A stretch of DNA of 64,000 nucleotides, taken from contig JAAOMT010000718.1 in assembly GCA_016748015.1 (NCBI GenBank), forward strand, positions 248,001 through 312,000, written 5' to 3'. Shown here piece by piece: positions 28,075 to 64,000 of the stretch. Source of the DNA: Geosiphon pyriformis uo1. Its lineage: Eukaryota > Fungi > Glomeromycota. A program made the translations under genes and the position numbers. Below the pieces are notes generated by a model. It was not told the origin of the DNA and searched no databases. It saw only the letters and a program-made list of their open reading frames with translations. How positions within the stretch are numbered: the stretch's first letter is position 1; each line of letters begins with the position of its first letter.

Positions 28075-28140
28075 TAGCCTTGATTGGCTCGGGTGACTGG
28101 TCACGTGTAGAAAGTGCATGAGCTGTGTTGTTAAAAAAGA
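28075..28140 (+). mobile_element. Very short 3'-end fragment of the LINE family
   Basis: TAGCCTTGATTGGCTCGGGTGACTGGTCACGTGTAG...CATGAG matches the LINE 3' UTR at 1021-1068. Confidence 0.65.
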
Positions 28141-28751
28141 TATATATATATACGTATACATCAAATACATTATATCTTTAAATTTTAATTATTTTATTAA
28201 TACAGTTTTAATCCAAAAAATCCCAACTCTATAAATTTAAATTAAATTAATATAATCGATAATTATATTATATGTTTTTGAAAATATAGAAAACTTCCAA
28301 TGATAAATATGTAAACCATTTTTTAGAAATGAAGTAATTAATTTCTTTATAATCATTTATTATAATAATTTGTTTAAATTTTGTTATTTCGGGGTTTTTT
28401 TAAATTAAAAAAGTTTCATGTATAAAATGTATATATATATATTTATACCATTATAAAAATCTTGTATATGAAAATTATTTAATAATTAATAATAATGAAT
28501 ATTTTAAAATAAAAAATATTTATTATTACACATTCGATAAAGGCACTAAATATTTTTATCGTTTGTTTAAAATGAAATTATAACAAAAAAATTAAAAAAT
28601 TATTATTATTATTTAGATAGCGACATCTAAGATTTTCTAATAGAAAACAAACAATAAACCTTTTTATTTATATGAGTTTTTTTCCTTTTCTTTCTAAAGC
28701 ATTCAAATGAAATAAATAAATTAATAAATTAATAAATAAATAAAATGAATT

Positions 28752-31300: not shown

Positions 31301-32639
31301 GTGCTTAAAAAACAAATTAATAATATTAAAAATATTAAAAAAAATTAGCAATAATACAATTTTATTTTCAGCTTAAATTTGTTTAAAAAGTTTTAAATTA
31401 TACAAAAAAAATAATATAAAGTTTTATTTAAAAAGTTTCTTAAAAAATTAGCTTTAATTTTTAAGTTTTTACAAATTATTATATTTTATTTTAATACATA
31501 TTTTTAAAAATAAAACTAAATAACAATTAATTACAATACAACAGAAATTAAATACAAAAATTATTTATTTAAAATAGTTTTTTAAAATTATATTGGCAAA
31601 AATTTAATATTAAAATAAGCTTTAGTTAAGTTAAACTTAAAAAACTATTTATTGGCAAAAAAATACCCAAACATCTGTATAACTTTTTTTTTAACAATTA
31701 TAATTAATAATTTACTAATAAATAACGATGTATTAATAATTTATTAATTAATAAAAATATTTTTAATTTTAAAAAATTTACTTATAATATTAAGAACATA
31801 CTGTATTATAAATTAATTATTGCTAATTTATATAGTTTTATTAATAAAAATACTGATAATTAAAAAATATAAAATTTGTTTAACTTTTTACATAACTTAT
31901 TTTGGTTACAAATTTAATATTAATACAATATTTATAAAATTATTTATATTTTTAATCTTATATAATAAAAATTTATAAAAAATTTATTATAGTAAAAAAG
32001 AAAAAATCTTATTTTAATTTAAATTATTATGTAATTTATAGTTATTTATAAATTTAAAATCTATTATAATATAATTAATTTTATTATTATAGATATTACC
32101 AAAAAACTTAATAAATTTATTATATATTTTAATTTTTTGTAAACTGTTTATTAAGTAAGATCAATTAATCAAATTATATACTTTGTACATATTGTTATAA
32201 GTAAATTTAATAATATATAGTCATAATATTTGGTATTTGTAATTAGATAATAAAAGCTGATTAGATGTAAATAAATTGTTTAATTAATTATATTAATTAT
32301 TAATCTCTAAAAAATTTTTGGTCTAAAGTTATATTTATTGAATTTTTTAATTATAAGACACAAAAATAATATTTCTATAGTTATAATATTATAATTGTAT
32401 TTCTTTTTAAGCTAATTAAGTACAGTTATTAAAGTTAGTAATATTTTTTTGCTTTTTTAATAAGCTAATAAAATAAAGTTAATATTTAAATTTAAAGTGG
32501 GCTTTTTTCTTTTATTAAACTATTACAAAGTCTATTTTCAGTCGATTTTTAATGTTATTGCTTTACAAAAAAATAAAAAAATAAAAATAAAAATAAAAAT
32601 AAAAAAATAAAAATAAAAAAATAAAAAAAACTTAATATT

Positions 32640-35175: not shown

Positions 35176-35509
35176 ATTTTTTTTTTATTTGCTTTACAAG
35201 TGAGGTCTAAACACTATCTAGTGCTATACATCAAAGAATTGATCTAAACTAGGTGTAAATCATGTATTTTCTATATGTGACCAGCCACTCAGGCCAATCA
35301 GAACAACACTAAACAGCTATATGAACCAAAACTGAGTTACTTACACCTGAAAAAAACAAACAAGATTTGTGAAAACCAAAACGAACACCAAAAGCATCAG
35401 CAATGCCAAGCAATTTGATTACTCTAGCTGACAACTCAGAGGCCAAACCAGAAACCGAGATGGAAATCAAACTGTCAAGGAAAATCAACCCATATTTCTC
35501 CATATACAC
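35176..35509 (-). mobile_element. 3' part of LINE split by Gypsy A (continues at 63468)
   Basis: Poly-T (A tail on minus) ~35176-35190, UTR stem-loop 35278-35300, ORF tail YMEKYGLI...FFSGVSNSVLVHIAV*. Confidence 0.85.
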
Positions 35510-36342
35510 TGTTACAGGTAACTATTTCTGGTGTTGGATTAAATAACAAACCTGTAACTTAGTGCTCAAATCTAGTTACAGTTAATAGTGATCTGAAGGT
35601 TTGTGTCTGAAAGATTTGTATCCAAAGGGTTTGGTTGAGTTCTTTGTATAATGGACAGAGATTCAATGGTAATAGTTTTATCTGTAGCTTCCTGAAACCG
35701 CAGTTTTATCAATTTTTTTCTTAGCTTGATGGCTGGTATTTCTCCTGGTAAGCTATCCTCAATTGAGTGTTTTACTCTTATTTCCGAGTCTTTTACCAGT
35801 CACGTTTATCCTAATGTCAGTACTCTGTGCATTAATCCTCAATAGAGTTAGTAAACAACAATAAAATCAAGGCAAAAAATAAAGAAAAGAAAAGAAAATA
35901 AAAAAAGAAAAGAAATAAGCCAAGGCAATTTGCAAGTTAGTATTCTATCAATAGCCATGATTAAGAGCTATTGTTCCAGTGTGATTAAGTATCAATTACT
36001 ATCAACATAAAGTGTTGATAGTGGCAGCAGGTTTAAGATAACAAACAGTTATTTATTTGTGGTTTGGAAAGTTGTTTAGATGAAATCTAAACTGAGAGGT
36101 CTGTCTTTTCAGCTTCTAATCCTACTGCTATATATACATAATTGAGATTCCCCAATTCCTCAATTCTTCACAACAGGAATCCTGGGATTCTTGGAATTTT
36201 GCAATTCCTTTGAGAGAATCCTGTAATTTCTGGAATCCTGCAATTCCTAAGAGGAATCCTGGAATTCCACATTTTACTATGTCTACTTCTGATTGGCTAA
36301 TAACTATGCTAATATATATTCCCTATATTTCTATGAGTAATA
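35510..36342 (-). repeat. 3' LTR of Gypsy A
   Basis: Collinear with 62635-63467, same length. Confidence 0.92.
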
Positions 36343-36650
36343 TTATTCCCTCCTTTTAATATTGAGCTCTGTCGAAATCTAACTCTGTTAATTCTCTTTC
36401 TTGAAGTATTTCTTGAATTTTATTTTCGAGAATTACTTGTGTTATTTAAATCTGTAATTCTTCAAATTGAGCATTGGTGATCTTTCTTAATTGATTACTG
36501 ATAACCGTATCCATTGCTTTGTTGAGTAAAATTTCTGGTTGATCCTGAAATGCTGTGTGTATTTGGTATATGGCTCAAGCCTGTGTGGATAAGTTGTTCT
36601 TTTCCACAAAATATTCTAATTGTTGTAGTATTCTTGTGTTGAATAATTGC

Positions 36651-37538
36651 TGTTACTCATAGAATATAGAAAATATAGTATTATTAGTCAGTAGATATTA
36701 GCCAATCAGAGGTAAACATAGTAAATGTGGAATTCCAGAATTCCTCTCAAAGGAATTGCAGAATTCCAGGAATTTCAAGATTCCCCAACGAGAAATTGCA
36801 GGATTCCAGAATTGCAGGATTCCTCTCATTAGGAATTGCAAGATTCCAGGAATCTCAGAATTCCTGTCACAAAGAATTGAGGAATTGAGGAATCTCAATT
36901 ATGTATATATAGCAGTAGTATTAGAAGCTAAAAAGACAGACCTCTCAGTTTAGATTTAATTTAAGCAACATTCCAGTTCCCAATCATCAAATAAATAATT
37001 ATTCTATATCTCAACACACTCTCTACTATCAACACTTCATGTTAATAGTAATTGATACTTAACCATACTGGAACAATAGCTCTTGATTACGGCTATTAAC
37101 GAGATACTAACAAATTTGCCTTGGCTTATTTTCTCTATTTTCTTTATTTTTATTTTCTTTATTTTATTTTCTTTCTTTCTTTGATTTTGTTGTTGTATAC
37201 TAATTGATTAAAAGATTAAGCACTGAGTTATTGACATCAAAGATAGTCTGGTAAAAGACCCAGAAATAAGGGTAGGATTTTATATATTATTGGATAGCTT
37301 ACCAGAAAGGCACAACTGCCAGACTAAATCTGGCCACCACGCTAAGAAAGAAATTGAGAAAACTCTTGGAAAGATACATCTATTATTGACACTATTGAAT
37401 CTCTGTCTATTATACAAAAAACTCCATCCAAAACTTTTAGATACAACACTTATAAAACATCATCAATAGAAGTAGCTTTTGAGCACCAAGTTATGAGTTT
37501 GTTATTTAATTCAACAGCAGAAATAATCACCTGTAACA
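36651..37538 (+). mobile_element. Solo LTR (A/B family) inserted in the 3' ORF of Gypsy A
   Basis: TGTTACTCAT...CCTGTAACA with flanks TTGC / TCGC (4-bp TSD, one C>T). No PBS follows. Confidence 0.88.
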
Positions 37539-39094
37539 TCGCTTTGTTTTATCTGTATATAGATTCTGGATATTCACATGTTGTCCCAAGTAAAAATAAC
37601 AATAATTTCTTGGAAATTGTTGTATCCACCAATTCCAAGTTTCTTTAGTCAACTCTTGATATAGTAACTCTTTTGTCAACTCTTTTATTGCTAATTTTAC
37701 TTTCACAATGATTTTGTCAACAGTATTTTCTGTTTTCTTCTATGTTCTATATGGTGATGTCTTTCTAGTGTCTTGATATCGGATGGTTTGTTGATTAATT
37801 GTAATTTCCATCTCTTGGTGTTGAATCAATTGAAAGAGTTGTTGTGCTAATGAGTGGATGTTGTCTGTAATTTCCATTTTTCTGATATTTTTTGTTGTGT
37901 CTATTATGTCTTTATATATTCTTTTGATGGATTAATTTAACGTGTTGTTGTCAATGATAATAATTGGTTCCAGATCTCATAGAATCTCCTCTGGTTGGAC
38001 TAGTATCTTTTGTACTCTTAATTATGGAATATTACTGATGGATGGTGGTGTAATGTTGTGATATGGTTTTAGTCAATTTCCATGTGCTGCTTTGGTTAAA
38101 ATTTTGTTATCTAGTCTTAACTTGTAAGCTCTATTCCCTAGAATTTCTTCTATATGAAATGGTCCATCTTATTTGGGGTCGAATTTTCCACTCTATTGTT
38201 TTTCTGCTGTTACTCATAGAATAGAGAAAGTATATTATTATTAGCAAGTAGAGATTAGCCAATCAAAAGTAGACATAGTAAATGTGGAATTTCAGGATTC
38301 TTCTTAGAGAAATTACAGAATTCCAGGAATTTCAGAATTCTCCAGTGAGAAATCGCAGGATTCCAGGAATTCCAGGATTCCTGTTACAAGGAATTGAAGA
38401 ATTGAGAAATCTCAAATATGTATATATAGCAGTAATATTAGAAGCAGAAAAGACAGAATTGACACCAAGAATCCTTAGCTTAGTTACCACAATTCTCAAA
38501 TAAATAATTATTCACTATCTCAAATCCATTCTTTACTATTAACACTTCATGTTGATAATAACTGATACTTAACCATACTGGAACAATAGCTCTTGATCAC
38601 AGCTATTAATAGAATACTAACTTGCAAACCACCTTGGCTTATTTTTTATTTTCTCTTTATCTTTTCTTTATTTCTTTGTTGTCTACTAACTTGATTAAAG
38701 AACTTACTCTTGGAGGACTTACAGAGAAATAAAACTTACTTAAACAATATTTACTCTTGAAGGACTTACGAAGAAATAAACTTGCTTAAACAATATTTAC
38801 TCTTAGAAGACTTATGGAGAAACTGATGTCAGAAAACAGCACTGGTATACACTTATGGAGAATATCGTATCAGGAGAATCATCAACCATCAAGCTGAGCA
38901 AGCAATCGACAAAACTATGGTTTCAAAAAACTACTGATAAACTGTTACCCTTGAATTTCTGTCCATTATACAAAGAACTCAATTGGAAAACCTTCAGATA
39001 AAATATCTTCAGATTATTATCATCACTAATTGCTTTGCGCACTAAGTTACGAGTTTGTTATTCACTTGACACTCCAAAGAATCACTTGTAACAT

Positions 39095-42000
39095 TTGGTG
39101 CTCCCTGTGAGGTATAATTCTACAGAGAACCAACACCAACAACACCATCTAAACGTGGCAGAATCAGAAATTATAGGAGCCAACCACTTAGGATTTGCAA
39201 AATCCTTGTTTCAACAATACAGTCAACAATTAGGATTAAACAGTAATCACTACCCAGCCAAATCAGCCTTCAACTATTACGTCAACAATAAAATCACAGA
39301 CTGTTTAGGAGGAACTGTTAATATCGAGTCAGCAAGAGAAAATTTCTATACAGAATTATTTCAACACACCAACTTACCAAGAAATCACAGTTTTGCCCCA
39401 ATCATCAAGGAAATCAATCAAACCATTGAAAGATACACACAACAACAATTTCCCATTACCTATGCAGACAAAAGTAAAGGAAAAATACAAACACCAGCAG
39501 CAACACCAAAAAAAATACAGTTATCTAGTTGGAAAAAACACAGAGTAGAATCACCAACCACTCCATCACATCACTACATACCTGAAAGCACCATCAATAT
39601 TTTATCAGCAGACACGTCCACATCAATTGTGACATTAACATTTGGAAGATTTCAGTTCCAAAGCAAACAACGGAAAGAAGACTTACTAGGACCATACAGC
39701 ATGTATTTTGAAAGATTTAAATTACGATCTTCAACACCATCAGGAATTCAATCACCAATACCCCAACCAGATTTCAGAGCTGCTACTCCATGGGAATTAT
39801 CAGAAGAAGAAAAGGAAGGAAGTAAAGATCAAGGATTCACTTACCAAAACCCGATCTCAAAAAACTCGGAATTTGGAACCCTGAATGTTCAGACTTAGCA
39901 AAATTAAAACAATCAGAACCCTAATTTAATTAATTAGCCAAACATACCTCCAAATATCATCATCGATTACCCACCAATTGATCCGATAGTCAAACCCATT
40001 CAGCAGCCATCTCAACAACCAAATCTGCAAATCCAACAGCCATAAGGACCACCTCAGCAATTACCACGGCAACAACAACCACTACAGCAACCATAACAAC
40101 AACTAAACATAAACCAAATGACCTATGTACCCATCACCAAGTTAGAAAACTTTACTAGCAAAAAAGTCAACACTTAAGCATGAATCAATAATGTTTCCAA
40201 GGCCATCATAGTGAACAATTGAGACGATGCCAGAGCCCTACAGGTAATCCCATACTTTCTCAAAGAAACTGCCAATTCTTGGTATCAGAGTTTAGCTGTC
40301 AAATCACAAACATTCCAACAATTCAAAACTGTCTTTCTGGGATATTTTAGCAACAATAACAGTATTAATCATCTAGCCAATACTTTTACCACAATCAAAC
40401 AGAATAATACTGAAGCAGTCACAACATACTTAGGATGCTTTCATAGAGTTCTACACCAAATTCAAGCCATTGACGCTATGTATTTTACAGAACCCCAGAT
40501 CCTCAACCAGTTTATTTGTGACCTGCATAGTAGTATTTTGCAACACATATGCTCATTACATCCAGCCAACTTTCAAGCTGTAGTTATACACACTAGAGAT
40601 TTCGAATCAGCTGAGCTAAAAGCCAACCACGCTCAAGCTATAAATTTAGTAATGAATGGATTATCTGATTTGGATTCCAAATTGAAGCAAATCAGTGATA
40701 CCATTAATTAAAAAATTGAGGGATACTTAATTAACAACCATCAGTTCATTTATCAACCTCCCCAAAGATGTAGTAATCAGGGAAATGCCAATCATTTCCA
40801 AAATCAAGCATGTCTATTATCATCAATTAATCAACCATGGCAGCAGGAAACATGTGTCTGCCACAACTGTGGTAAACAAGGTTACATAAGAGCCAACTGC
40901 AATGCTTATAACCAATGATCAGAAAATCAACATCAAAATCCCGATCCCCAATTTCAAACCCAGAATCAATATTAAAATCAAAATCAATACCAAAACACTT
41001 ACCTGCCAATGATGCAGCAGCCAATTTATCAAGCACCAGTATATCAGACTCCAGTTTATTAACTGCAGCCACCAGCAATATATCAACCACAGCCATTTGT
41101 AATATATTAATTACAGCCACAAGTAATCTATCAACCTCAAACCATTCAAATACTACCCCAAAACTTATCTCAACACAGAACCCAAAGACTGAGAATGACA
41201 CAACAAAACTGGAAATCAGTGATAGTTGTCCACCAACTAATCCCCAGTTCTTTCAATGCACCATCAGGATCACATTCTCGGAATTCAGGTACTGGTGTTA
41301 CCCAAAACCCAAATTCTCAGAACTATTTAAGTCTTCTGGTTATCCCAAAAGACGCCACCATCAACAATTCGGGATTCAACCAACAACAAGCACTTACCAA
41401 CAACATTCCACCAGCAACTGTCACCAATGATGAATCGCTTGTGGCCATTTTTTCCTTTGACTTAGAAGAAATGATCAAAATTCTATTGTTCAGTGGAGCA
41501 GTTCTTGAAGAGAAGCCAATCACCATCATGTATACGGATGCCAAAATTAATGGCCACACCATCAAACTGATCTTAGATAGTAGATCAGCTGACAGCATCA
41601 TAACAAAACAACTCATGAATCAATTAGGTTACCAAGTTGACCGAATTGCTAATGCAAAAATTATTACAGTTAATGGAGTGACCAAAACTTCAATAGGCAA
41701 AATAGACAACCTACCTATCATAATTAATGGCATCACAGTACCCATCAAAGTCCTTGTAATGGAAGCCACTTAGTACCAAGCTCTTGTTGGAAATAATTGG
41801 CTATCCAAAACAAATGCCGTACTTGATTGGACAATGCAAGAGCTCTAACTGAGCCAAAATGGTCAACATACTCAGGCACCAGCAGTATGTAGCCACTTTA
41901 AACCAACCAACTCGCAGCCACTAATCAAATTTGAGGAGGAAGCAAAGAAACCAACATGGGAAGCATATCAGGTTTTGTGGGCTGACATCAACCACAATAA

Positions 42001-43283
42001 ACTGCTGTCCATACTTGTCTGAAACAAAGACGATCATGGAAAAAGAAAGCAGAAAGAAAAACATACCTGGGAAACCACCATTGGCACTTGGATTGACAAC
42101 AACCAAAACGAGTTGCCATCTACACTAAGTTGGGAAGAAAAAGGGAAAAGAAAGGAAAGAGAAGACAACATACCAGAGGAAACCAAATCAACAAAAGACA
42201 CCACCAGTGGCTGGACAAGTTTGTACTCCATCCATGAGCCACTGCCACAACCACTACACATACTGCTCAAATACAAAAATTGTGGAAAAAAACTTTCTTC
42301 CATGGAAGCTTGGGTCACACCAGACAAAGATTACTGGACATGAACCCACTATTATTGCAAGCCTTGCCACCATGAATGGTATGGCTACCCAAAAAGACAA
42401 GACAAGTGGAACAACGAACCATGTCTCATTTGTGGCAAACAGTTGCTTGACGAAGGAATGTGGAACAACATTCCTGGTCGAAGAGGAATATACAATGCTT
42501 CATGCCAGTACACAATCTTCATCAGTGACTGGGTGAGTTGTGGCACGCCAATAACTGCCACTTGGCACCAAGCAATCTCTCACCTGGACAGATACCCACA
42601 TGATAAAGACGAGATCTGGTGAATGGTGAATGCCAAAATAGAAAGCACCATGCCCAACAAAATCTTGGAAATCAAGAACAATCCTCCAGAACCAGTTAAC
42701 ATTATCTTAATCCCAAACTCAGATGCTTTTTTTAACATTGAGACCAACCCAGAAGACTTCCACAAACATTATCAAAATTTAGCACCAACCAGAGAGAAAC
42801 AAGAAGAGTGGTTAGCACAGTTAAACACTCAATTATGTGACCACTGTTTAATCCCATGTGACTTTTAATATTGTAATGAATGTAACCTCATTTACAATCC
42901 ACCAATCCATATAATCTACATGATCCCAGAGGAAATCGAACCAATCAGCAGCTGTGCATCGGAATTAGAATTACCATTCAATCCTGATTCAAACTCCAAC
43001 AACGATGATAACAAAAACACTGGTTCCAGTTCTGTTCAAATTGGCAATAACAATAACGATGACGATTCCAACTCAAATTCAAACTCCAACCCAAAATATG
43101 AACAATACATTGCACTGCCAGACCTCTTCAAAGAACAGAAGTTGAAATGGTATAGTGATAATAATGAAGGTATCATACCAGAATGTGTGCATGATACTGA
43201 TGCTGGGTTTGATCTGAAATATCCTGAAAAAGATGTTATAAAATTGGAACCACATTCATGCATCTGCATAAATCTGAAAGTAG
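39095..43283 (+). pseudogene. Gypsy B gag-protease-Cys-rich-dUTPase (N-terminal part), many premature stops
   Basis: CHNCGKQGYIRANC knuckle ~40858, LILDSRSADS protease, HDTDAGFDLKYP dUTPase motif 1. Confidence 0.85.
39096..39112 (+). promoter_or_regulatory. Primer-binding site of Gypsy B
   Basis: TGG-initial 17-mer 2 nt after the LTR, complementary to a tRNA 3' end CCUCACAGGGAGCACCA. It resembles elongator Met or Ile(UAU) tRNA ends; not resolvable here. Confidence 0.75.
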
Positions 43284-46200
43284 TGTTACGGGTTGGAGTA
43301 ACAAGCTAACAGATAGCAAGGAAGAACAGGATTGTAGGGTGATGGAAATAATCAAAGAGAAATTCAACTTTAAAGAGCGAATTGAATGAGTATGAATTCA
43401 ATGTGCAAGATCAGTCTCATAAAATATCTCAGTTGCTATTCTTTTCAAAGATAACTGGGGAATCTAAAAGTAGAAGGATAGTCCGTACTGTCAACAATTG
43501 ATCACTATTGGTATAATTCTATGTCTCATGTCGGTGCTCTTAGAATTCAATATCAGGTATCAACTTGTGCTTTTCAGTCATGTTTATTTAAATAATCTTC
43601 AAATGCTACAATTATATACGTTAAGAAAAGGCCAACAAGTAATCTTTTATCTTAAGATGTTTGGATACTTGAAGGTAAGAAAAGAAAAATTAGCAATAAA
43701 AGAGTGATTGAGATAAAAGTTGTTATTTTTATTTATTTGATTCTTGTCTAAGAAATGATTTTCTACAGCTAAGAGACTTATTGCTTATATAGCTATTGAA
43801 AATAGTCAATGACCAGGTTAATGACTAGGTTAATGATTAGGTCAATGATCAGGTCAATAATCAGGTCAATGGTCAGGTCATTGATCAGGTCAATGATCAT
43901 TATCTAAAAATAGAGTGGCTAATTATATGACATCAGTGACTAATACATGTGATAACTAATAAAAATTATGGGTTTCAACCGTAACATCATTCTCTTCAAA
44001 GAGATTGAGCTCTGGCAAAATCAAGCCATTTATAGGGTATTCTAATTGAAGAGTTTTATCTAACTCAAAACTAACTAGTTTGTTGAAGTCTTTTGTGAAT
44101 AGAGTATATAGTACTTAAGGCAAAATAAGCTTTGTATCCAAGAAACCAAATCTTTGTATAAGAATTTTGGCTCTTTTTGCAATGGTCAAAACTCTTGGGA
44201 CATCTAAACATATAATGCCCAAAATTTCCACTTGTATCTCTGAAGTTGTTTTCTTCATGAGCTTCATTTCTTCTATGATTTCACCAAAATGACCATAGAG
44301 TTCTAGTTGCCTTCCATATGACAAGTTTTTGTCTATGGGCAAGATTTCCTTAATCATTTTTCCAATTGTCATAGAAAGTGTAAGTATTGCTGCTGTTATG
44401 CTTTCCAGCAAATACTTATCTATTTTGCTACCAATTCTTTCTCTTCTGGTAGTGGTTTTCTTTGGTCTAATAACAGTATGTGTTCTACTGTTATCAGTTA
44501 TGGTGGTTTGTTTTCCAATGGTCAGAATAGCATTTGAATAATTTTTGATTCAGTACTCATGGAGAGTATAGAAAACATTTTGAATGTTTTGATCTAGAAA
44601 ATAATTGTTCATATTGATTGAAGATACCTCTGTTTTGGGAATGGTGTATTTATTTATATCTAATTTTTGTTGATCATTTGGGTTGGTATTACCACAACAG
44701 GTAACCAATTAGGTCATTTGTAATATTTCTTGAGTCGTGTGTCATGAACAGGGTGATCATTGAAGATTGTTCTATATTGATTTTGTAAGATATAAGAACC
44801 ATTGTTTAAAACTTTGTTGACTATAAAGAGTCCTTTCCATTGGCTAGAGAATTTATCACCATAGACATTGTCTCTGTCTGAATGGTATTCTAAAACTAAG
44901 TTACCAACACTTAAGGAAAGTGTTTTATATGTTTTCTTTTTTTTAAGCTTCTCTTAGAATTGTTTTATCTTTTCAAAGGCAATTATTTGTGCTTCTACTA
45001 ATAAGTCAAAAATAGTACCAAGTCTTCTTTGCAAAATGTCTTTGTAATTCTCTATTGTTATTTCTTCAAAGGGTATTGTTTCAATATCAGTTTCTATTGG
45101 TAGGATTGCCATTCATCCATAGAGTAGATAAAAGAATTCATAACTTGTTATGTTATGATTCACAGTTCTATAAGCAAACAAAGCTGAAGGCAGTACTTTG
45201 TTCCATAAGTTTGTTTTTTCACTGGTTTTGGCTAGGGTTTCACATAGTGTTCTATTGAAACGTTTTACTAGGCCATTTGTTTGGAGGTAATAAGGAGAGG
45301 AAAGTTTGTGACATATTTCTATTTTTCTGCAAAGTTCTTTAACAAGTGTACTGAGAAAAGCTCTTCTTCTGTTAGATAAAAGTTTTTTGGGGCAGCCATG
45401 GTGACAAATGATATCTTTATAAATGAAATTGGCTATTGAGACTGCTGTTTGGTTTGGAGTGGCTCTTGCTTCTACCCACTTTGTAAGATAGTCTGGAGTG
45501 GCTCTTGCTTCTACCCACTTTGTAAGATAGTCGGTAATTGTGATAATGTATCTGTTGCCATCAAGAGTTATTGTTAAAGATCCAACAATATCTATACCAA
45601 TTCTGTCAAAGAGTTGACCAACAGAGATTGGATGGATATCTTCTTTGCGATTGGGTTTTCCTTTTCTTTGACAGATATTACAGGTTTTGATGTATTCAGC
45701 AATGTCTTTTCCCAAGGTAGGCCAATAATAGTAAGCTAGAGTTTTCTGAATTGTTTTTGTTTTTCCAAAGTGTCCAGCTAATAGATCAGTGTGCATATTG
45801 TAGATCACAATTTCTCTTTTTTCAAATCTGATGACTCTCTGGAGGTGGTCAGGATTTTTTCTATTTTTTTTATAAAGTTGGTTTTGGTGAATCAAATAAA
45901 AATTTGATTGTTTGCGCAAATGTTCTCTTTGTTGTCATGTGTATTTTGGTGGGTATTGTCCTTTACCCAAAAATTCTATTAAGACAGAGTAGTTGTCCAA
46001 GTCCATTATCGTGTTTGTCAAAAAGGGGGGGAATTATTAATAATTAAGTTGGTTTTGTTTGAGAGGGTTGTTCTGTCACTGGATGGTAAGTCTGGAGAGA
46101 GCGTCGGCATTTTGATAATTAGCTCCTTTGCAATGTTGAATATCATAGTTGAATTCATCTAAGTGGAGTATCCAGCAAGTTATCCGTTTGTGTTCTAGCC

Positions 46201-51010: not shown

Positions 51011-51014
51011 GTAG

Positions 51015-53131: not shown

Positions 53132-53630
53132 GAACATTTCAACTCAAAAATATAACAAAACCAGAACAATACCAACGAAAATATAACAAAAGATAAACAT
53201 ACAAAAATATCAACAACTTCAACATTATATAAACACTCAACAATTCAAGGAGAATTTATCTCAAACAGAATGAAAGAGTATTAAATAACAATCAAAATAT
53301 TTTATTACTCACCAAAATATACTTTATCAGAAAAATAGAAAATTTGATCCCAAATGGAATGGACTATTTCACATAGAAGAAATTCTAGAAAATGGAGCTT
53401 ACAAATTAAAATTAAATAACAAAATCTTGACCAAAGCAGCACATGAAGATTGACTGAAACCATACCACCATATAACATCATTATCTACCAGTAATATTTT
53501 ACAACTGGGAGTACAGAGAATACTAGTCCAACCAGATGAGATTCCATGAGATCTAGAACTAATCATTATCATTGATAACAACACATCTAATTAATTAACA
53601 GAAAGAACATATAAAGACATAGTTGACATA

Positions 53631-54278
53631 ATGAAAAAACACAAAAAAATGGAAATTACCAACAACATCCATTCATTAGCACAACAAATCTTTCAATTAA
53701 TCCAACACCAGAAGATGGAAATTACAATCAATCAACAAACCATTCAATACAAAAGTACTGCAAGGATACCACAACACAAAGTACAGAGAAAACTTGAAAA
53801 TGTTGTTGACAAGATTATGATTAAGATAAAATTGGCCATAAAAGAACAACAAATAGTTGGATTACACCAAGAACTTACCAGAGAAACTTGGACTTGGTGG
53901 ATGCAACAATTTCCAAAAAACTATTGTTATTTTCACTTGGAACAACATGTAAATATCCAGAATTTATACACCAACAAAACAAAATGGTTATTTGACACAA
54001 CAATACTGAAACAACTAGAACAATTTGTAAGAAAGAACAATCTAACCACACAAACTTGAGCCATTTACCAGTTATATATGGGATTTCAAGACCAACCAAA
54101 AATCTTATTCAACACAGCAATAGATACAGTTATGAGTAATCAATTGGGAAAAATGACCAACACCCAATTTGAAGAATTACAAACTCAAATAACACAAGTA
54201 ATACTCGAAAAAGAAGTTCAAGAAATAATTCAAGAGGGGGAATTAAAAGAGTTAGATTTCAATGGAGCTCAATATTAA
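53631..54278 (+). pseudogene. Extra 3' ORF of Gypsy B (unknown function), one internal stop
   Basis: ORFs 53631-54059 and 54078-54278 are in the same frame and end ELDFNGAQY* at the PPT. Homologue in A at ~37890-36356. Confidence 0.7.
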
Positions 54279-56332
54279 AAAGAGAGAATAATGTTACTCA
54301 TAGAATAAAGGAAGTATATTATTATTAGCAAGTAGAAATTAGCCAATCAGAAGTAGATGTAGTAAATGTGGAATTCCAGGATTCCTCTCAGAGGAATTGT
54401 AGGATTCCAGGAATTTCAGGATTCTCCAGTGAAGAATCACAGAATTTCTGTCACAAGAAATTGAAGAATTGAGGAATCTCAAATATGTATATATAACAGT
54501 AGCATTAGAAACAAAAAAAACAGAATTGACACCAAGAATCCTTAGCTTAGTTATCACAATTCTCAAATAAATAATTATTCATTATCTCAAATCTATTCTT
54601 CACTATCAACACTTTATGTTGATAGTAATTGATACTTAATCATACTGGAACAATAGCTTTTGATCACAGCTATTGATAGGATACTAACTTGCAAACCACC
54701 TTGGCTTATTTTTTATTTTCTCTTTATCTTTTCTTTATTTCTTTGTTGTCTACTAACTTAATTAAAGAACTTACTCTTGGAGGACTTATAGAAAAATAAA
54801 ACTTACTTAAACAATATTTACTCTTGGAGGACTTATGGAGGAATAAACTTGCTTAAACAATACTTACTCTTAGAAGACTTACGGAGGAACTGATGTCAGG
54901 AAACAGCATTGGTATACACTTACAGAGGATATTATATCAGGAGAATCATCAACCATCAAGCTGAGCAAGCAATCAATGAAACTACAGTTTCAAGAAACTA
55001 TTGATAAACTGTTACCCTTGAATCTCTGTCCATTATACAAAAAACTCGATTGAAAAACCTTTAGATAAAATATCTTCAGATTATTATTGTCACCAATCGC
55101 TTTGCGCACCAAGTTACAGGTTTGTTATTTACTCAACATCCCAAAGAATCACTTGTAACACCATTTTGGTATGATATAAAAGTACTTTGTCTCCAATCTT
55201 GAATTCAACTGGTTTGTCTGGTAGTTGATTATCATGTCTTTCTTTCTGTTTCTTTTGTAACTTTTATATGTTATCAGCTGCTCTTTTTCATTTGTTTTCC
55301 AATGTTTCCATTAAGTTATATGTTCTTCTTAACAATGTTTCTTGGAAATTTTCTTCTGTTATTGGTTCAATTGGATATGTGTTAACCTTTATCTCAACTG
55401 GTAATGTTGCTGTTCTACCATATATCAATTCAAATGGTGTTGCTTGTGTGGTGTTTTGTTTCATTGTCCGATAAGCAAATAATACTGATGGTATGAACAA
55501 ATCCCATTTGTCCTGGTTTTTTTGGTTGAGTTTTGCTATTGCTTCATACAATGTTCTATTAAATCTTTCAACTAATTTATTGGTTTGTAGATGGTATGGT
55601 AATAATAGTGGTCTTTTTATTCCGAATCTTTGGCTTAGTTCTGCTAATGTTCTATTCACAAAATGGGTTTTTTGGTCTGATAATAGTTCTTTTGGACATC
55701 TATATTGACAAATCAGATCTTAATGGATGAATTCGGCAATAAATTCTGCATCTGTTCTTTGAATTGCTTTGGCTTTTGGCCATTTAGTAAGATAGTCCAT
55801 GGCTACTGCAATATATCTGTTGCCTCTGTTGGTAATTGTTAATGGTCTGACTAAATCGATTCCAATGCGGTCAAATGGTTGTCCTACTTTGATTGGTCTC
55901 AATGGTTTGCTGGGTCTTGTTCCTTCTCTTTTTTGACAAGCATCACAATTTTGCACATATTGGATGATGTCTGGATATATTGATGGCTAATAGTATCTCT
56001 TTCTGGTTCTTTTCATGATTGTTTTTTTATAAAAATGTCCTGCAGTTGGATCTGAGTGCATGTTGAACAGTATTGTTTCCTTTTCTGATTCTGTAATTAC
56101 TCTAGTTGGTTGATCTGAATCTTTTCTATTTTTCCAATAAAGTATATTTTGGTAAGTGATAAAATATTTGGATTGTTGTTTGATCCTCTTTTGTTCTGGT
56201 TAAGATAATTTCTTCTTGAACTGTTGAGTATCTATATAATGTTGAAGTTATTGATATTTTTGTGTGTTTATCTTTTGTTATATTTTCATGAGTATTGTTT
56301 TGGTTTTGTTATATTTTTGGGTTGAAATGTTC

Positions 56333-59300
56333 TTAGATTTGTCTCATTTGTAACAAACTATTAGCATTTTTGTTGTCTTTTCCTTTTTTATAATGTATGA
56401 TATAAGTATATGTCGAAAGAGCCATTTTCTATCTAGACTGTCTTCCATTTCCAAATTCTTTTTTTTGGAGTAATGTCAATCCTTTGTAATCTGTGTACAC
56501 CTCAAACTTTTGGCTCAAGTATTTTTTTCATTTCATAACTGCCCAATAGATTGCTAGATGTTCTAATTCTGGTGTTCTATAGTTCTTTTCAGCTGGAATC
56601 AAACCTCGGCTGGCATATGTAACTGGATGTTCTCTTCCATTCAATCCTCTCTGAGATAGTACTGCTCCAAATGCTTGACCTGATGCATCAGTAGTGATAA
56701 TGAATGGTTTACTATGATCTGGATATATCAATACTGGAGCTTAAATAAGCTTTCTTCTTAAGATGTCAAATGCTTCTTGCTGGGTTTCAGTTCATTCATA
56801 TTTTGCATTTTTGGTTTGAAGATCATTGAGTGATTGTGCTATCTTTAAAAAGTTCTTTATGAAGTGTTTATAATAGCTTACAAATTCCAAAAATGATTTC
56901 AGCTTGGTTACATTGGTTGGTATTGGAAAGTTTTTTACTATTTCTATTTTCTCCAGATCTGTTTTTATGCCATCTTTGCTAATTATGTGTCCCAAAAATT
57001 TTAGTTCTGTTTTGCCAAAAAAACACTTTGTTGCATTCAATTTTAATCTTGCTCGTCATAGTCTTTTAAACACTTGTTGGAGATGATGTAGATGATCATC
57101 AAATGTTTTTGAAAACACATTGGTGTCATCCAAGTATACAACTATTGATTTCCACAATAAGCCAGTATACACAATTTCCATTAGCCATTGGAATGTAGCT
57201 GGAGCATTGATTAAGCTGAATGGCGTAACTTCAAACTCAAAGTTTCCCTTTCTTGTGGTGAATGCTATTTTTTTTTTGTTGGCTGGATCCATGGCTACTT
57301 GTCAGTAATCACTATCCAAGTCTAACATTGAGAACCATTTGTTTCCACCAAAAGTGTCAAATAGTTCTTGTATCCATGGAGTCGGATAGCTGTCTCCATG
57401 AATTACACTATTGAGTTTCTTGTAGTCTACACAAAATCAGATTTTTCCATTCTTCTTATGGACAAGTACTACTGGTGATGACCATGAACTCATTAATAGC
57501 TGAATTAACCCGTTGTCAAGCATTCAGTTGATCTCTTGACGGATGATTTTATGGCTGGCTGATAGTACCCTATATGCTTGCTGTTTGATTGGCATTGCAT
57601 CTCCAGTCTTGATTTGATGCTAGATAATATCAGTTCTGCCAAATTTGTTTTCACTAATGAAGATGTCATTGAAATTATTGAGTAACATCTTTAGTTGCAT
57701 CTGTTGAAGTGGGTCTAAATTTCCCATGTTCATCTGTTTCAATTGTTCTGGCTGTAACAGATAACATTTATTTTGTCTGTAGATGGTTTGTGATGTAATA
57801 TCCACATATCCACAAAGCTGTGGAAAATCTGGAATGCTGCTTGGTGCTTGATCTTCAATTTCCGTGGTTAAATATCTAAGAGTGGTTCCTTCTAACATCT
57901 TTACAACATTTCCAGTGTTGTTGTAGATAGGAATTTTGATATGATTATGGCTCTTGGCTGGTATGTGTAGATTGATAAGTCCAATTTCTCCTGATTCACA
58001 AAGGATTACTTCTGCTTCAAAAATCTGTTCTTGCTCTTTCTCTTTCCTTTTTATTGCTAACATGTATCAGCTATATGGTGGAATGGAAATTGTTTGACCA
58101 GTTAAGATAATTTCTCCTTGGCCAATAATTTCTTTCTCCACCATATTAATTGGTACATTTATTCTACCCATTGATCCAAATTTCTGTATCTCTCTTGCTG
58201 TTATCCCTAATTTTTTCCTATTTTCTACTGAAACTAACTGAGCTATTTTTACCAAAGACAGAAATATTGTTTGTGCTATCCTTTCATTTGGCTCTATAAC
58301 ATAGGCTTTTTCTGAGTTATTTTGTAGCATAGCAATAATATTTCCTATATATTCTGTATCAATTATTCCTCTTTTGATGTTTATTCTCTTTTTTGCTAAA
58401 CTACTCCTAAATGCTAATTGAACTATTGTTGTTGCTGGAGTTTCTAGTGTTATTTTCAGATTAATGCAAGTGCACAAATGAGATTCTAATTTGATGGCAT
58501 CTTTTCCTGGATATCTTAGATCAAATCCTGCATCAGTATCATGTGCACATTCTGACATGATACCTTCATCATTATTACTGAACCATTTCAGTTCTTGCTT
58601 CTTGGTAAGGTCAGGAAGTGCAATATATTGTTCGTAGTTTGAATCGGAGTTTGAATTTAAGTTGGAATCATTGTCATTGTTATAGTCATTTTGAACAGAG
58701 CTGGAACCATTATTTTTGTTATCATTGTTGTCAGAGTTTGAATTGGGGTTGGAACTCGATTCTGATTCTGATGTGTAGCTGTTGATTGGTTCTTCTTCTT
58801 TAAGGATTGTGTAGATCATGTGTGGTAGTGGATTGTAGATAAGGTCACAATTATCACAAAATTGGAAGTCACATGGAATCAAACAGTGGTTACATAATTG
58901 GGTGTTGATTTCTTCCAAGTGTTGCTCTTGCTCTTCTTTTGTGGGTGTTAGATTCTAATAGTGTTCATGGAATTCTTCTGGGCTGTTTTCTAAGTCAATA
59001 AAGGCATCCAGATTGAGAACCAAAACAATGTCTGTTGATTCTGGAGGGTTATTCTTGATTTTCAGAATTTCACTGGGTGAAGTGCCTTCTACTTTGGCAT
59101 TGGCCATTTGTCAGATCTTGTCCTTGTTATGTGAATAGCCATCTAAGTGAGATATAGCTTGGTGCCATGCTGCTGTGATGGGCGTACCATGACTCACCCA
59201 GTCACTGATAAGAACCATGTATTGACATAAAGTGTCATACATTCCTCCTTAACCAGGAATGTCGTTCCACATTCTTTTATCAAGTAATTATTCACCACAA

Positions 59301-62300
59301 GTGAGACATAGTTTGTTGTTCCACTTGTCTTGTCTTTTTGGGTAGCCATATTATTCTCTATGGCAGAACTTGCAATAGTAATGGGTTCATGTCCAGTAGT
59401 CTTTGTCTGACACTACCCAAGCTCCCATTGAGGACAGTTTCTTCCCACAGTTCTTGCATTTGAGAGGTATATATGGTGGCTCTTTTATTGGTTCACATGA
59501 GTATTCTCTTTCCCAGCCACTAGTTATTTTTTCTACAGTGGTGGTTTCTTCAGATATGTTTTCTTCTCTTCCTTTTCTTTTTTCCTTGTTCTTTTCTTTC
59601 CAATCTAGAATTGATGGCATCTCGCTTTGGTTGTTGTTAGTCCAAGCATTGATGGTGGCTTCCCAGGTAGATTCTTCTCTTTGTTTCTCCTTTCCATTGT
59701 CATTGTTGTCCCAAGTAAATATTGGCAGCAGTTCGTTGTAGTCAATGTCGGCTTATAAGACTTAGTATGCTTTCTAGGTGGGTTTTGCTTTTTCTTTCTT
59801 GAATTTGATAAGTGGTGTTGATGGCATGGTGATGGGCTTGAAGTGGCCACACATGGCTGGTATCTGTATGTGTCGACTATTCTGGCTAAGCTGGAGCTCT
59901 TAGGTGTTTCAATCTAGGGTTGCATTGGTTTTGAACAGCCAGTTGTTCCCAATGAGTGCTTGGTATTGAGTGGCTTCTATGATGAGTACTTTGATTGGTA
60001 CTATGATGCCATTGACTTCTATGGGGAAATCATCAATCTCTTCAATGGGTGTTTTGGTTGCTTCATTGGCTGTAATAATCTTGGCACTGGCAGCGTGATC
60101 AATTTGGCAATCTAATTGATCTATAAGTTGTTTTGTGATGATGCTGCCAGCTGATCCACTATTTAGGATCAGTTTGATGGAGTGACCATCAACTTTTGCA
60201 TCAGTGTACATTATAGTAATGGGTTTTTCCTCGAGTGCTGCTCCACTGAACAAAGGTGGGTTGATGGTTTCCTTCAATTCAAAAGGAAAGATGGCTGCAA
60301 GAGATTTATTTTCGGTAATTGTTGCTGGTGGAATATTTTTAGTGAGTGTTGTTTGGGGTGGGTGGAATTCCGAGTTGTTGGTAGTGGCATTTTCTGGAGT
60401 AATCAGGAGACTTAAATAGTTTTGGGAATTTGGGTTTTGGGTGGAATCAGTACCCAGATTCTGCTGTCAAGAGCCTGATGGTTGGTGAAAGGAGCTGGGA
60501 ATCAGTTGATGAACAACCATTACCGATCTCCAGTTTTGAGTGATTCTAGGTTTTGGATTTCCTGATGTCATTTGAGTGGAATTTTGGAGTGGTGTTTGAA
60601 TTGGTTGTTGGGACTGATAAATTATTTGGGGCTGTGGCTGATAAATTACCAGTGGCTGCAGTTGATAAATTGGAGGTTGATATACTGGTGGTTGATAGAT
60701 TGGTTGTTGTGTTATTGGCAGGTAAGTGGTTTGATATTGGTCTTGATTTGGGTAGTAATTTTGAGTCTGAAATCTGCAATTGGGGTTTCGATATTGATTT
60801 TCTAATTGTGAATTGTTGCTATAAAATCGATAGTCAGCTCTAATGTGACTTTGTTTACCACAGTTGTGACAAACATGTGTTTTTGGCTGCCATGGCTGAT
60901 TTTAAAAACAATTTGTGTTTCCTGAATTATTGCATCATTGTGGTGGTTAATAGATTGCACAATTGTCAGCTAAGTATCCCTCTAGTTTCTGATTGATTGT
61001 ATCACTGAATTGTTTTAGTTTGGAATCCAAGTTAGATGATCTGTTCATTACTAAATTTACAGCTTGGGTGTGGTTGGCTTCTAGCTCAGCTGCTTTAAAA
61101 TCTCTGGCGTGGGTGATGGCAGTTGGAAGGTTAACTGGATGCATTAGACATACTCACTGAAGGATGCTACTGCACAATCCTCTAATGAACTGGTTCAAGA
61201 TTTGTGGCACTGTAAAGTAATCAGCTTGAATTGCCTGAATTTGGTGCAGATTTCTATAGAAGTGTCCCAAGTAAGTGGTGACTGTTTCTGTGTCTTCTTT
61301 TTTGATGGTGGTAAATGTGTTGGTCAAGTAATTGATACTATTGTTATTACTAAAGTATCTTAAAAATTCTGTTTTGAACTCATTGAAAGTTTGTGGTTTG
61401 GCAGCTAGGCTTTAATACCATGAGTTGGCAGTATCTTTGAGAAAATAGGGGATTGCTTGAAAAGCTCTACCATCATTCTATTCATTGGTCACTATGGTTT
61501 TTTCAATGTCATTGAGCCATATTTGGGCGTTATCCTCTTTGCTGGTAAAATTGTCAAGTTTTGCGATTGGTACATAGACCATTGGATCTAAGTTGAATTG
61601 TTGTGGTGGTAATTAAAGTGATTGTTGTTGTATGGGTTGTTGGGGTGGTAGTTGAAGTGGCAGTTATATGGGTTTGGCTATTGGATTAATCAGTGGTTGA
61701 TCGATGATGATTACTGGAGGTAAGTTTTGTTGATTTATTAAATTGGAGTTTCGGTTATCTTGAGTTGGTGGTGTCTGAATATTTGGAGTTTCAATTTCCA
61801 GATTTTCTGGATTTAAATTTTGCTGGATTTGAAGATTCAGGGTTTCAAATTCCAGGTTTTCAGTAATCGGGTTCTGGTAAGTGAATTCTTGATCTTCAGC
61901 TTCTTTTTCTTCCTTTTTTTCTGATTCTGTTACTTTTTATGAATCAGAAATTCCGAAATCTGGGGGAGGCAGTTGCGATTGGAGTCTTGATGGCATTGAT
62001 GATCGCAAGTTAAATCCTTCAAAATACATGCCATATGGTCCTAATAACTCTGCTTTTCTTTGTTTACTTTGAAATGGAAATTATCTAAATGTTGATGTTG
62101 TGTTTGATGTGGCTGTGCTAGTAGATGTAATATTAATGGTGCTTCTGGGTGTATAGTGGTATGATGGATTAGTTGAGGACTCAACTCTTGTTTTCTTCCA
62201 AGTAGGTAGTTGTATTCTTTTGGGTGTTACTGCTGGTGTTTGCAGTTTTTCTTTGCCTTTGCTTGCATAAGTAATGGAGTATCTTTGCTGTGTGTAGTGT

Positions 62301-62575
62301 TCAATTTCTTTGTTGATTTCCATGATGATGAAGGTGAAATTGTGATTTGTTGACAGGTTGGTATTTTGAATTAATTTGCTGTAAAAGGCTTCTCTTGCTG
62401 ATTTAATATTTACTGGTGTTTCTAACAGATAGGCAATTTTTTCATTGACATAGAAATTAAAAGCTGATTCTGCTAATATGTGATTGTAATTTAATTCCAA
62501 ATGTTGACAGTAGTGTTGAAATAAAGATTTCATGAATCCTAGATGGTTTGCTCCTATGTTTTCTGATTTTGCCAC
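56333..62575 (-). pseudogene. Gypsy A gag-PR-Cys-rich-dUTPase-RT-RH
   Basis: ORF fragments 62081-62575, 59909-60277 (PR), 58067-58918 (dUTPase DAGFDL, RSSL, GIIDTEY), 57056-57292 (YLDD), 56528-56731 (RH). Confidence 0.87.
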
Positions 62576-62634
62576 TTTTAGATTTGTGTTGGTGCTGGTT
62601 CTCTGTAGAATTATATCTCACAGGGAGCACCAAA

Positions 62635-63467
62635 TGTTACAGGTGACTATTTCTGGTGTTGGATTAAATAACAAACCCATAACTTGGTGCTCAAATCTAG
62701 TTGTAGTTGATAGTAATCTGAAAGTTTGTGTCTGAAAGATTTGTATCCAAAGGGTTTGGTTAAGTTTTTTGTATAATGAACAGAGATTCAATGGTAATAG
62801 TTTTATCCATAGCTTCCCGAAACCACAGTTTTGTCAATTTTTTTCTTAGCTTGATGGCTGGTATTCCTTCTGGTAAGCTATCTTCAATCGAGTGTTCTAC
62901 CCTTATTTCTGGGTCTTTTACCAGTCATGTTTATCCTGATGTCAGTACCCTATATGTTAATCCTCAATAGAGTTAGTAAACAACAATAAAATCAAGGCAA
63001 GAAATAAAGAAAAGAAAAGAAAATAAAAAAAGAAAAGAAATAAGCCAAGACAATTTACAAGTTAGTATTCCATTAATAGCCATGATCAAGAACTATTGTT
63101 CTAGTGTGGTTAAGTATCAATTACTATTAACATGAAGTGTTGATAGTGGCAGCAGGTTTGAGATAACAAACAGTTATTTATTTGTGGTTTGGAAAGTTGT
63201 CTAGATAAAATCTAAATAGAGAAGTCTGTCTTTTCAGCTTCTAATTCTACTGCTATATATACATAATTGAGATTTCCCAATTCCTTAATTCTTCACAACA
63301 GGAATCCTGAGATTCTTGGAATCCTGCAATTCCTTTGAGAGAATTCTGTAATTCCTGGAATCCTGCAATTTCTGAGAGAAATTCTGGAATTCCATATTTT
63401 ACTATGTCTACTTCTGATTGGCTAATAACTATGCTAATATATATTCCCTATATTTCTATGAGTAACA
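62635..63467 (-). repeat. 5' LTR of Gypsy A
   Basis: Followed on the minus strand by PBS TGGTGCTCCCTGTGAG. Confidence 0.92.
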
Positions 63468-64000
63468 ATGCACAATGTTTAGCATGAACTAACCAGACAT
63501 TACTTCTAAAATCAAGACTAAGAGATCACACAAATTTAACAATTTCCAAACCAGCAACTTTGAGATTATAAAAGATGGTGACCGCTTTGCAAAACCAATC
63601 ATTAAAAACAAAACTCTTATAAAGAGCCATGAACAAAAAAGAGTCAAAGACACATGAAGACAACAGCTGTAGAATGCCTGAAGAAGAATAAGAAAAACCA
63701 GAGATTACTTTCCAGGAGTCCACATAGGATTCCAACAATTGATATCGGACAAAATCATCAATCCTGCAAGAGAACACATGATCTAATGTCTCTATATCGC
63801 CACAATATAAGCACAACACACTTGGATATAGTCTATTATAAAAGCACTTCTGAATGGCAACTGGCAGCCAGTGATACAAAGTCTTCATAAAATAAAAGTG
63901 GGCATTAGCCAAAGGTCTGCTAGTAAAACTAGTGGCCATGTGCAAATTAGGGTGTCAAACCAAAGATAAACAGAGCCAGTCAACTTTAGAGAACAAACCA
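63468..64000 (-). mobile_element. Upstream part of the LINE interrupted by Gypsy A (runs off window)
   Basis: LYHWLPVA...CLYCGDIETLDHVFSC zinc knuckle. Frame continues VWLVHAKHCA and joins YMEKY at 35509. Confidence 0.85.

What the first reader, a model, noticed from the sequence alone, without database searches (positions are those of the whole stretch)
35506..63471. A/B-family insertions all target a CpG-containing NCGC site
Seen: the 4-bp flanks are A ACAC/ATGC, B CTGC/CCAT and solo LTR TTGC/TCGC. They reconstruct to ACGC, CCGC and TCGC by transitions only; for A and B the two flanks lost the CpG on opposite strands. A 4-bp TSD restores the host reading frame in each case (CAYMEK, HTKAEKQ, KTKRLFN). 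C-family TSDs (GTAG, ATAT) lack CG. Inference: a sequence-specific integrase preferring CGC, possibly methylated repeat DNA, which would explain nesting and gene avoidance. n=3 only.
Basis: partly seen in the sequence, partly recalled or inferred. Interest (0 to 1): 0.72.

Follow-up and report, generated by a model that had tools for sequence, protein, structure and literature searches.

The report
Fungal retrotransposons that insert at CpG
Three nested insertions of one jumping-gene family, in what is likely a mycorrhizal-type fungus, each duplicated four bases that most likely had a CG pair in the middle, so their integrase likely prefers CpG, as the related Ginger1 DNA transposons do; whether it would sense methylation is untested.

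Summary
The flanks are as described: A ACAC/ATGC, B CTGC/CCAT, solo LTR TTGC/TCGC. Paralogs fix the duplication at 4 bp. A central CG is the likely original at all three (posterior 0.6-0.98). Such CG-derived columns make up only 1.4% of the LTR pairs' dinucleotides, so 3 of 3 is well beyond chance. It also exceeds the known pyrimidine-purine centre rule of 4-bp integrases (Bayes factor 200-1100; 15-70 with family C counted). Corrections: the fourth C is weak (p about 0.03-0.05; B may be CCGT; A reads GCGT in element sense). C's GTAG is a true non-CG site, but the ATAT control is void because that copy has lost nearly all C and G. Methylation targeting is unsupported: genes here hold five times more CpG than the repeats, and non-CG C nests too. 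The elements are Ty3/Gypsy of a Glomeromycotina-type lineage with a stand-alone integrase. The closest known rule is Ginger1 (CCGG/CCGT), but they are not Ginger1 members. No genome was held, so n stays 3. The scan noted the same pattern on another piece of this genome (e1-10582392, unreviewed).

The parts
35506..35509 (+). A target duplication, left copy ACAC (G>A from likely ACGC)
63468..63471 (+). A target duplication, right copy ATGC (C>T from likely ACGC)
35510..63467 (-). Ty3/Gypsy element A (10,109 bp without its inserts), inserted in the 3' end of a LINE ORF
35510..36342 (-). A 3' LTR (833 bp; 63 differences from the 5' LTR)
62635..63467 (-). A 5' LTR, followed by the primer-binding site at 62617-62634
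36647..36650 (+). solo LTR target duplication, left copy TTGC
   Evidence: empty-site contigs
36651..37538 (+). solo LTR of the A/B family inside A's 3' region
37539..37542 (+). solo LTR target duplication, right copy TCGC (CpG still present)
38204..38207 (+). B target duplication, left copy CTGC
38208..55160 (+). element B (9,222 bp without C; LTRs 38208-39093 and 54292-55160), inserted in A's integrase C-terminus; lacks most of its own integrase (deletion junction near 53340)
55161..55164 (+). B target duplication, right copy CCAT (from CCGC or CCGT)
43280..43283 (+). C target duplication, left copy GTAG (non-CG, central TA)
43284..51010 (-). element C (7,727 bp; LTRs 43284-43986 and 50356-51010), inserted in B's dUTPase
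51011..51014 (+). C target duplication, right copy GTAG
29871..30619 (+). C-family solo LTR D, almost fully C>T/G>A mutated; flanks ATAT/ATAT (29867-29870, 30620-30623) uninformative for CG
55161..56271 (-). A integrase (H2C2, DDE core), continuing at 38207-38040 (GPY/F region); separate frame behind a stop; broken by stops
44687..46006 (-). C integrase, separate ORF with YPYY-like N-terminus, H2C2 and rve; broken by stops
35312..35509 (-). LINE ORF C-terminus, host of A; continues at 63468-64000

Best explanation
The A/B-family integrase cuts target DNA with a 4-bp stagger and likely prefers a site with CG at its centre (NCGN, perhaps leaning to CGC/GCG), likely by direct readout of the DNA sequence and not of methylation. 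Shown: 4-bp duplications at all five insertions; a pyrimidine-purine step at the centre of all five; CG still present in one flank and CG-derived in five more; a non-CG site for family C. Inferred: the intasome bends the target at the central step, as 4-bp retroviral integrases do, and A/B adds base contacts that favour CG, as Ginger1 and ZAM do. Also inferred: after insertion both copies of the CpG were methylated with the surrounding repeat and decayed to TG or CA, which hides the duplication. Nesting likely reflects a repeat-rich genome plus selection or chromatin, not the CG rule.
For: TSD length 4 by paralog alignment and by 17 contigs that read through the empty solo site. P(central CG) is 0.85-0.98 for A and B and 0.59-0.90 for the solo under four parameter sets. 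Background of CG-derived columns: 34 of 2351 in LTR pairs, 0.6-2.4% in A-versus-B interiors, 2.8% CG in genes. Bayes factor against a YR-only rule is 208-1143 for the three A/B sites and 15-70 for all four informative sites with a free CG share. Paralogs fit a CG ancestor: the LINE copy has Val (GTG) at A's Ala codon, B has Trp (TGG) at the solo's Arg codon. Precedents: Ginger1 TSDs are CCGG 75% and CCGT/ACGG 24% (PMC2836005); ZAM targets CGCGCg by direct binding (PMC2527525); 4-bp integrases select central YR (PMC4422553).
Against: n = 3 sites in one locus, two of them in the same host element. The split into A/B versus C was made after seeing the flanks. Decay rates and priors are my estimates from three LTR pairs; only 53 of 143 substitutions in the A and B pairs could be polarised (43 GC>AT, 10 reverse), one more being a transversion. 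C, whose integrase lies in the same clade, used GTAG (P(CG) under 0.003). No further paired TSD of this lineage could be obtained.
Confidence: 0.62

Rival explanations
1. Only the general rule applies: a 4-bp integrase that wants a flexible pyrimidine-purine centre, with three CG hits by luck and by the choice of families after the fact.
For: All 5 of 5 TSDs have central YR (p 7e-4), the known rule (PMC4422553). With a 4% CpG background, at least 3 of 4 CG among YR sites has p 0.017, and the scan reads very many windows.
Against: Bayes factor 15-70 for a CG excess even with C counted. Measured backgrounds are 0.6-2.8%, below the 4% of the weakest case.
Confidence: 0.15
2. The integrase or a cofactor recognises methylated CpG, steering new copies into silenced repeats and away from genes.
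For: All three CG sites lie in repeats whose CpG o/e is 0.1-0.3 against about 0.9 in genes. TEs of Rhizophagus carry mCG (PMC8647823, passages). C methylation created strong target preferences for an avian retroviral integrase in vitro (review passage, PMC11054761). No chromodomain is listed for the lineage's hits, so another route to repeats is open.
Against: Non-CG C also nests. LTR elements cover 41% of the Geosiphon genome (PMC11952901), so nesting is common anyway. 5 of 6 target copies decayed, close to the regional rate of about 0.7 per copy estimated, so decay shows later methylation only. ZAM reads CG-rich sites in Drosophila, which lacks appreciable CpG methylation (recalled).
Confidence: 0.12
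3. The integrase reads a stricter CGC/GCG motif in either orientation, not just the central CG.
For: The most likely originals ACGC, CCGC and TCGC all hold CGC; p 0.03-0.047 given a central CG. The B and solo sites also share the three letters that follow.
Against: B is CCGT with probability 0.10-0.29; none of the three is the palindrome GCGC; the p value is marginal and post hoc.
Confidence: 0.25
4. The reconstruction is an artefact: the duplication is not 4 bp, or the mismatched flanks do not descend from one CG-containing word.
For: B's flanks differ at 3 of 4 letters and A's at 2 of 4.
Against: Gap-free paralog alignments only at 4 bp; empty-site contigs; 192 transitions against 4 transversions in LTR pairs, mostly GC>AT; perfect 4-bp TSD at C.
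Confidence: 0.03

Closest known systems
Ginger1 DNA transposons (Bao, Kapitonov, Jurka 2010, PMC2836005; parts 1-3 of 5 read)
   Same: 4-bp TSD with central CG; TGTNR ends (here TGTTA); about 420-aa integrase with YPYY-like motif, H2C2, DDE and GPY/F. Three integrase+Ulp1 proteins (Ginger1 architecture) are among the best 150 of 28,383 profile hits at E<1e-30.
   Different: These are retrotransposons with direct LTRs, gag, protease, RT and RNase H, no long TIRs and no OTU/Ulp1. The TSDs are 1, 1 (0 if CCGT) and 2 letters from the Ginger1 set. The Ulp1 proteins group apart (91/84), outside the clade with A and C (96/88).
Drosophila errantiviruses ZAM and Tirant (PMC2527525, PMC5408687; passages)
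   Same: Ty3/Gypsy LTR elements with 4-bp TSD and a CG-rich target read directly by the integrase.
   Different: Their target is CGCG/CGCGCg (central GC in the listed word) and their ends are AGT..AnT; here the centre is CG and the ends are TG..CA. No errantivirus sequence was in my trees.
4-bp retroviral intasomes such as PFV and MLV (PMC4422553; passages)
   Same: Central pyrimidine-purine step at a sharply bent target; 5 of 5 TSDs here fit.
   Different: There the YR excess is modest (about 63% over 22%) and not limited to CG; here 3 of 4 informative sites are CG.
Ty3/Gypsy integrases of Glomeromycotina (Cetraspora, Rhizophagus, Geosiphon records)
   Same: 40-60% identity, 80-84% over short stretches to Geosiphon proteins; same TGTTA LTR starts in related metagenome loci.
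   Different: No target-site data for them were found in the searches.

Membership tests
Ty3/Gypsy (Metaviridae) | Direct LTRs with TG..CA ends, primer-binding site and polypurine tract | tested here: met
Ty3/Gypsy (Metaviridae) | Domain order gag, protease, RT, RNase H, integrase | tested here: met
   Pfam and tblastn positions
Ty3/Gypsy (Metaviridae) | Integrase with H2C2, DDE core and GPY/F motif; Ty3 is the best solved relative | tested here: met
   (E 8.5e-51)
Ty3/Gypsy (Metaviridae) | Integrase fused in one Pol polyprotein (usual, not strictly defining) | tested here: not met
   stop after RNase H in A, B and C, new Met in C; many relatives are 420-430 aa proteins that begin at this point
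Ginger1 | 40-270 bp terminal inverted repeats, no reverse transcriptase | tested here: not met
   direct LTRs and RT present
Ginger1 | 4-bp TSD CCGG or CCGT/ACGG | tested here: inconclusive
   length and central CG match; exact word in at most 1 of 3 (B as CCGT, 0.10-0.29)
Ginger1 | C-terminal OTU or Ulp1 domain | tested here: not met
   A and C integrase frames stop soon after GPY/F; no Pfam family in the downstream ORFs of B and C
Ginger1 | YPYY motif before the zinc finger | tested here: inconclusive
   present by eye in C and many relatives, Pro missing in A
Ginger1 | Integrase falls within the Ginger1 clade | tested here: not met
   Ulp1-bearing proteins group outside the A/C clade; these are Ginger1-type by architecture, not named Repbase entries
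Errantivirus (ZAM, Tirant) | AGT..AnT ends and CGCG target | tested here: not met
   ends TGTTAC..GTAACA; targets NCGN
Errantivirus (ZAM, Tirant) | env gene | tested here: inconclusive
   an extra 3' ORF exists but has no Pfam or Atlas match
Chromovirus (heterochromatin-targeting Gypsy) | Chromodomain at the integrase C-terminus | tested here: not met
   none listed among the 120 hits; chromodomain-bearing hits lie in another clade
Methyl-CpG-directed integration (hypothetical) | Preference for methylated over unmethylated CpG | not testable with these tools
   no methylation map or fresh insertions available

The most novel reading that the evidence does not exclude
A fungal LTR-retrotransposon lineage whose stand-alone, chromodomain-free integrase reads methylated CpG directly, lands in already silenced repeats, and has its target duplications erased by the same methylation; its CG-centred rule would be inherited from a common ancestor with Ginger1, making it the retrotransposon counterpart of those DNA transposons.
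Probability: 0.12. Interest if true: 0.8.

Novelty: new variant of a known kind. Interest (0 to 1): 0.46.

Why it matters
Sequence-specific targeting by LTR retrotransposons has been called exclusive to Drosophila errantiviruses (PMC5408687). A CG-centred rule in a fungal TG..CA lineage would be a second case and would add a target-site character to the open question of how Ginger1 relates to Gypsy. It also has a practical effect: a CG-centred TSD decays into mismatched flanks, so programs that demand identical TSDs would miss or misdate these elements. If methylation were read, it would be a new route to heterochromatin targeting; that part is untested.

Tried and rejected
No genome is held for the window, so the genome-wide logo could not be made. 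One run holds the DNA, as short contigs; no RNA holder was listed. Two read-laying runs showed empty-site contigs but did not print a consensus of LTR flanks. A 24-letter LTR-end pattern found 0 matches in metagenome contigs. An integrase scan gave 80 metagenome loci and 2 viral loci (one search gave none). Of the 45 of 82 loci of 2.5 kb or more, only L061 had both LTRs with both flanks; it is a distant element (33% identity) with TSD CATA. In 25 closer loci the LTRs that could be delimited ran into the primer-binding site, so no genomic flank was readable. The old A/B-like element at about 32560-35190 is too mutated to give a TSD. The first likelihood model treated the two CpG bases as independent and overrated CG>TA; it was replaced. 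The extra 3' ORF gave no Pfam or Atlas hit, so no targeting domain was found there. No tRNA gene is in the window, so the primer tRNA was not identified. Rejected: ATAT as a negative control; 5-bp or 2-bp TSD; Ginger1, errantivirus or chromovirus membership; LTR divergence as a clock (nested B 81/869 against host A 63/833, p 0.22). Supplements of the papers were not read; Repbase-type TSD notes there may bear on novelty.
Full report
Setting. The window holds fungal genes at about 2.7-27.9 kb (CpG o/e about 0.9), a block of extremely AT-rich decayed repeats at 28-35 kb, and a nest of LTR elements at 35.5-63.5 kb (CpG o/e 0.1-0.3). Self-comparison and alignments give element A (35510-63467, minus strand), B inside A (38208-55160, plus), C inside B (43284-51010, minus), a solo A/B LTR inside A (36651-37538, plus) and a decayed C-family solo LTR D (29871-30619). 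Pfam and tblastn show gag, protease, RT, RNase H and integrase in Ty3/Gypsy order, with a dUTPase in A and B. Named relatives are from Cetraspora, Rhizophagus and Geosiphon, the last at 80-84% over short stretches, so the host is likely Geosiphon or a close relative.

The flanks. Of TSD lengths 0, 2, 3, 4, 5 and 6, only 4 gives a gap-free alignment of the empty site with a paralog for B, solo and C. For A, the LINE copy at 735-880 aligns without a gap at the junction, and protein P0095 has the same spacing. In run X1, 17 contigs leave the stretch at the solo LTR start and continue with the far flank, as empty-site paralogs should. The host peptides CAYMEK, HTKAEKQ and KTKRLFN follow from the translations.

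Is the CG real? The three LTR pairs differ by 192 transitions and 4 transversions. Of the A and B pair differences that could be polarised, 43 were C>T or G>A, 10 the reverse and 1 a transversion; 85 were ambiguous and 5 had no outgroup. With these rates and a CpG decay of 0.7 per copy, the probability of a central CG is 0.85-0.98 for A and B and 0.59-0.90 for the solo, and under 0.003 for C, across four parameter sets. Paralogs agree: Val (GTG) faces A's Ala codon and Trp (TGG) faces the solo's Arg codon. At C's site paralogs keep Val or Ile, so its central T is old and GTAG is a true non-CG target.

Is it more than chance? LTR pairs were duplicated at the same moment as the TSDs and give a direct background: 34 of 2351 dinucleotide columns are CG or CG-derived. 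A-versus-B interiors give 0.6-2.4% and genes 2.8%. For backgrounds of 1.3-4%, 3 of 3 has p 2e-6 to 6e-5 and at least 3 of 4 has p 9e-6 to 2.5e-4. A fairer null is the known preference of 4-bp integrases for a central pyrimidine-purine step (PMC4422553, passages); all 5 TSDs here have one, a feature that transitions do not change (p 7e-4). Against that null, at least 3 of 4 has p 6.5e-4 to 0.017, and the Bayes factor is 208-1143 for A/B alone or 15-70 with C and a free CG share. The excess is real at face value but rests on three sites, chosen after the fact.

Corrections. The fourth C is weak. A is on the minus strand, so its target is GCGT in element sense; allowing either orientation, the chance that all three carry CGC given a central CG is 0.03-0.047, and B is CCGT with probability 0.10-0.29. 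D's ATAT is no control, since D has lost most of its C and G. The methylation step is unsupported. Genes hold 28.1 CG per kb and the nest 5.1, so a CG rule alone points towards genes. C nests without CG. LTR elements cover 41.2% of the Geosiphon genome (PMC11952901, passages). Decay of 5 of 6 target copies is about what the region shows anyway. Methylated TEs are known in Rhizophagus (PMC8647823, passages) and methylation can create retroviral targets in vitro (review passage, PMC11054761; the original paper not seen), so the idea stays open at low odds.

Mechanism. Shown: 4-bp stagger, YR centre, CG excess in A/B. Inferred: target bending at the central step, with added base contacts that favour CG, followed by methylation-driven decay of both copies. 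B lacks most of its integrase, so it was either mobilised in trans or deleted later. No chromodomain is listed for the 120 hits, and the extra 3' ORF has no match.

Comparison. Ginger1 DNA transposons make 4-bp TSDs that are CCGG (75%) or CCGT/ACGG (24%), end in TGTNR and share YPYY, H2C2, DDE and GPY/F with some Gypsy integrases (PMC2836005, parts 1-3 of 5). The lead to Ginger1 came partly from note e1-10606126. A profile of 28 lineage sequences had 28,383 hits at E<1e-30; of 36 of the best 150 that I scanned, 3 carry Ulp1, the Ginger1 architecture. In a 50-row tree, cut by hand from 95 rows to finish in time, A and C lie in a clade with the Glomeromycotina proteins (96/88). The Ulp1 proteins group apart (91/84), and a 100/100 branch separates both from the chromodomain-bearing and animal Gypsy rows (quick tree). 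So the lineage is a neighbour of Ginger1-type proteins, not a member or a shown sister; rows were picked from top hits, which favours closeness. ZAM binds and inserts at CGCGCg (PMC2527525, passages), and Drosophila Gypsy elements have 4-bp TSDs with palindromic motifs (PMC3276498, passages). Passages of PMC12440569, PMC6839031, PMC12863088 and PMC2864245 added nothing on fungal target sites. Searches listed no report of a CG-centred TSD for a fungal LTR retrotransposon; the library lacks Repbase and most subscription papers, and no supplements were read.

Limits. No genome is held. Reads, metagenome and viral scans gave no further paired TSD of the lineage. An unreviewed note on another piece of this genome reports NCGN duplications across every family (e1-10582392); I could not see its data, do not count it as evidence, and family C here does not fit 'every family'.

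Verdict. A real and probably non-random feature: a likely CG-centred target preference in a fungal Gypsy family, a new variant of known sequence-guided integration. The methylation and gene-avoidance story is untested. Interest 0.46.

Noticed in passing
window 35510-63467 (three LTR pairs): 192 transitions against 4 transversions; C>T occurs in all contexts (CA, CT, CC) as well as at CpG, far more skewed than ordinary drift. Could be broad methylation decay or a RIP-like process.
   Followed up: partly
window 28000-35200: Repeat block at 11-23% GC with C and G almost erased; holds LINE fragments (about 28776-29800), solo LTR D and an old A/B-like element (about 32560-35190), next to normal genes.
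   Followed up: partly
window 58208-58558 (-), and 43150-43283 plus 51011-51250 (+): dUTPase between protease and RT in A and B; C inserted into B's copy.
   Followed up: partly
window 56271-56350 (-) and 46006-46080 (-): Integrase is a separate ORF behind a stop after RNase H; many relatives are 420-430 aa stand-alone proteins.
   Followed up: partly
window 53340: B has lost most of its integrase (zinc finger and DDE core) by one deletion.
   Followed up: partly
window 53595-54275 (+), paralog in A at 37900-36359 (-): Extra 3' ORF after the integrase in A and B, no Pfam or Atlas match; the solo LTR sits in A's copy.
   Followed up: partly
window 39094-39111, 62617-62634, 50334-50349: A, B and C share nearly the same primer-binding site although A and C integrases are distant; the tRNA was not identified.
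   Followed up: no
window 37540-37546 and 55162-55168: The solo and B target sites, both in host A, are followed by the same three letters TTT G after the duplication; may be chance.
   Followed up: no
window 38208-55160 versus 35510-63467: Nested B has slightly more LTR divergence (9.3%) than its host A (7.6%); not significant (p 0.22), but LTR dating is unreliable here.
   Followed up: yes
window 17190-18648 and 3447-6506: Divergent histone H2A/H2B pair and a kinesin-like gene in the gene-rich part (names recalled from the translations, not from a call).
   Followed up: no
L061:5500-11671: Complete distant Gypsy element with a perfect 4-bp TSD CATA, centre not YR.
   Followed up: no
proteins P0156, P0195, P0228: Integrase plus Ulp1 proteins (Ginger1 architecture) among the closest relatives of the fungal integrase profile; P0156 and P0195 carry no name, P0228 not looked up.
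   Followed up: partly
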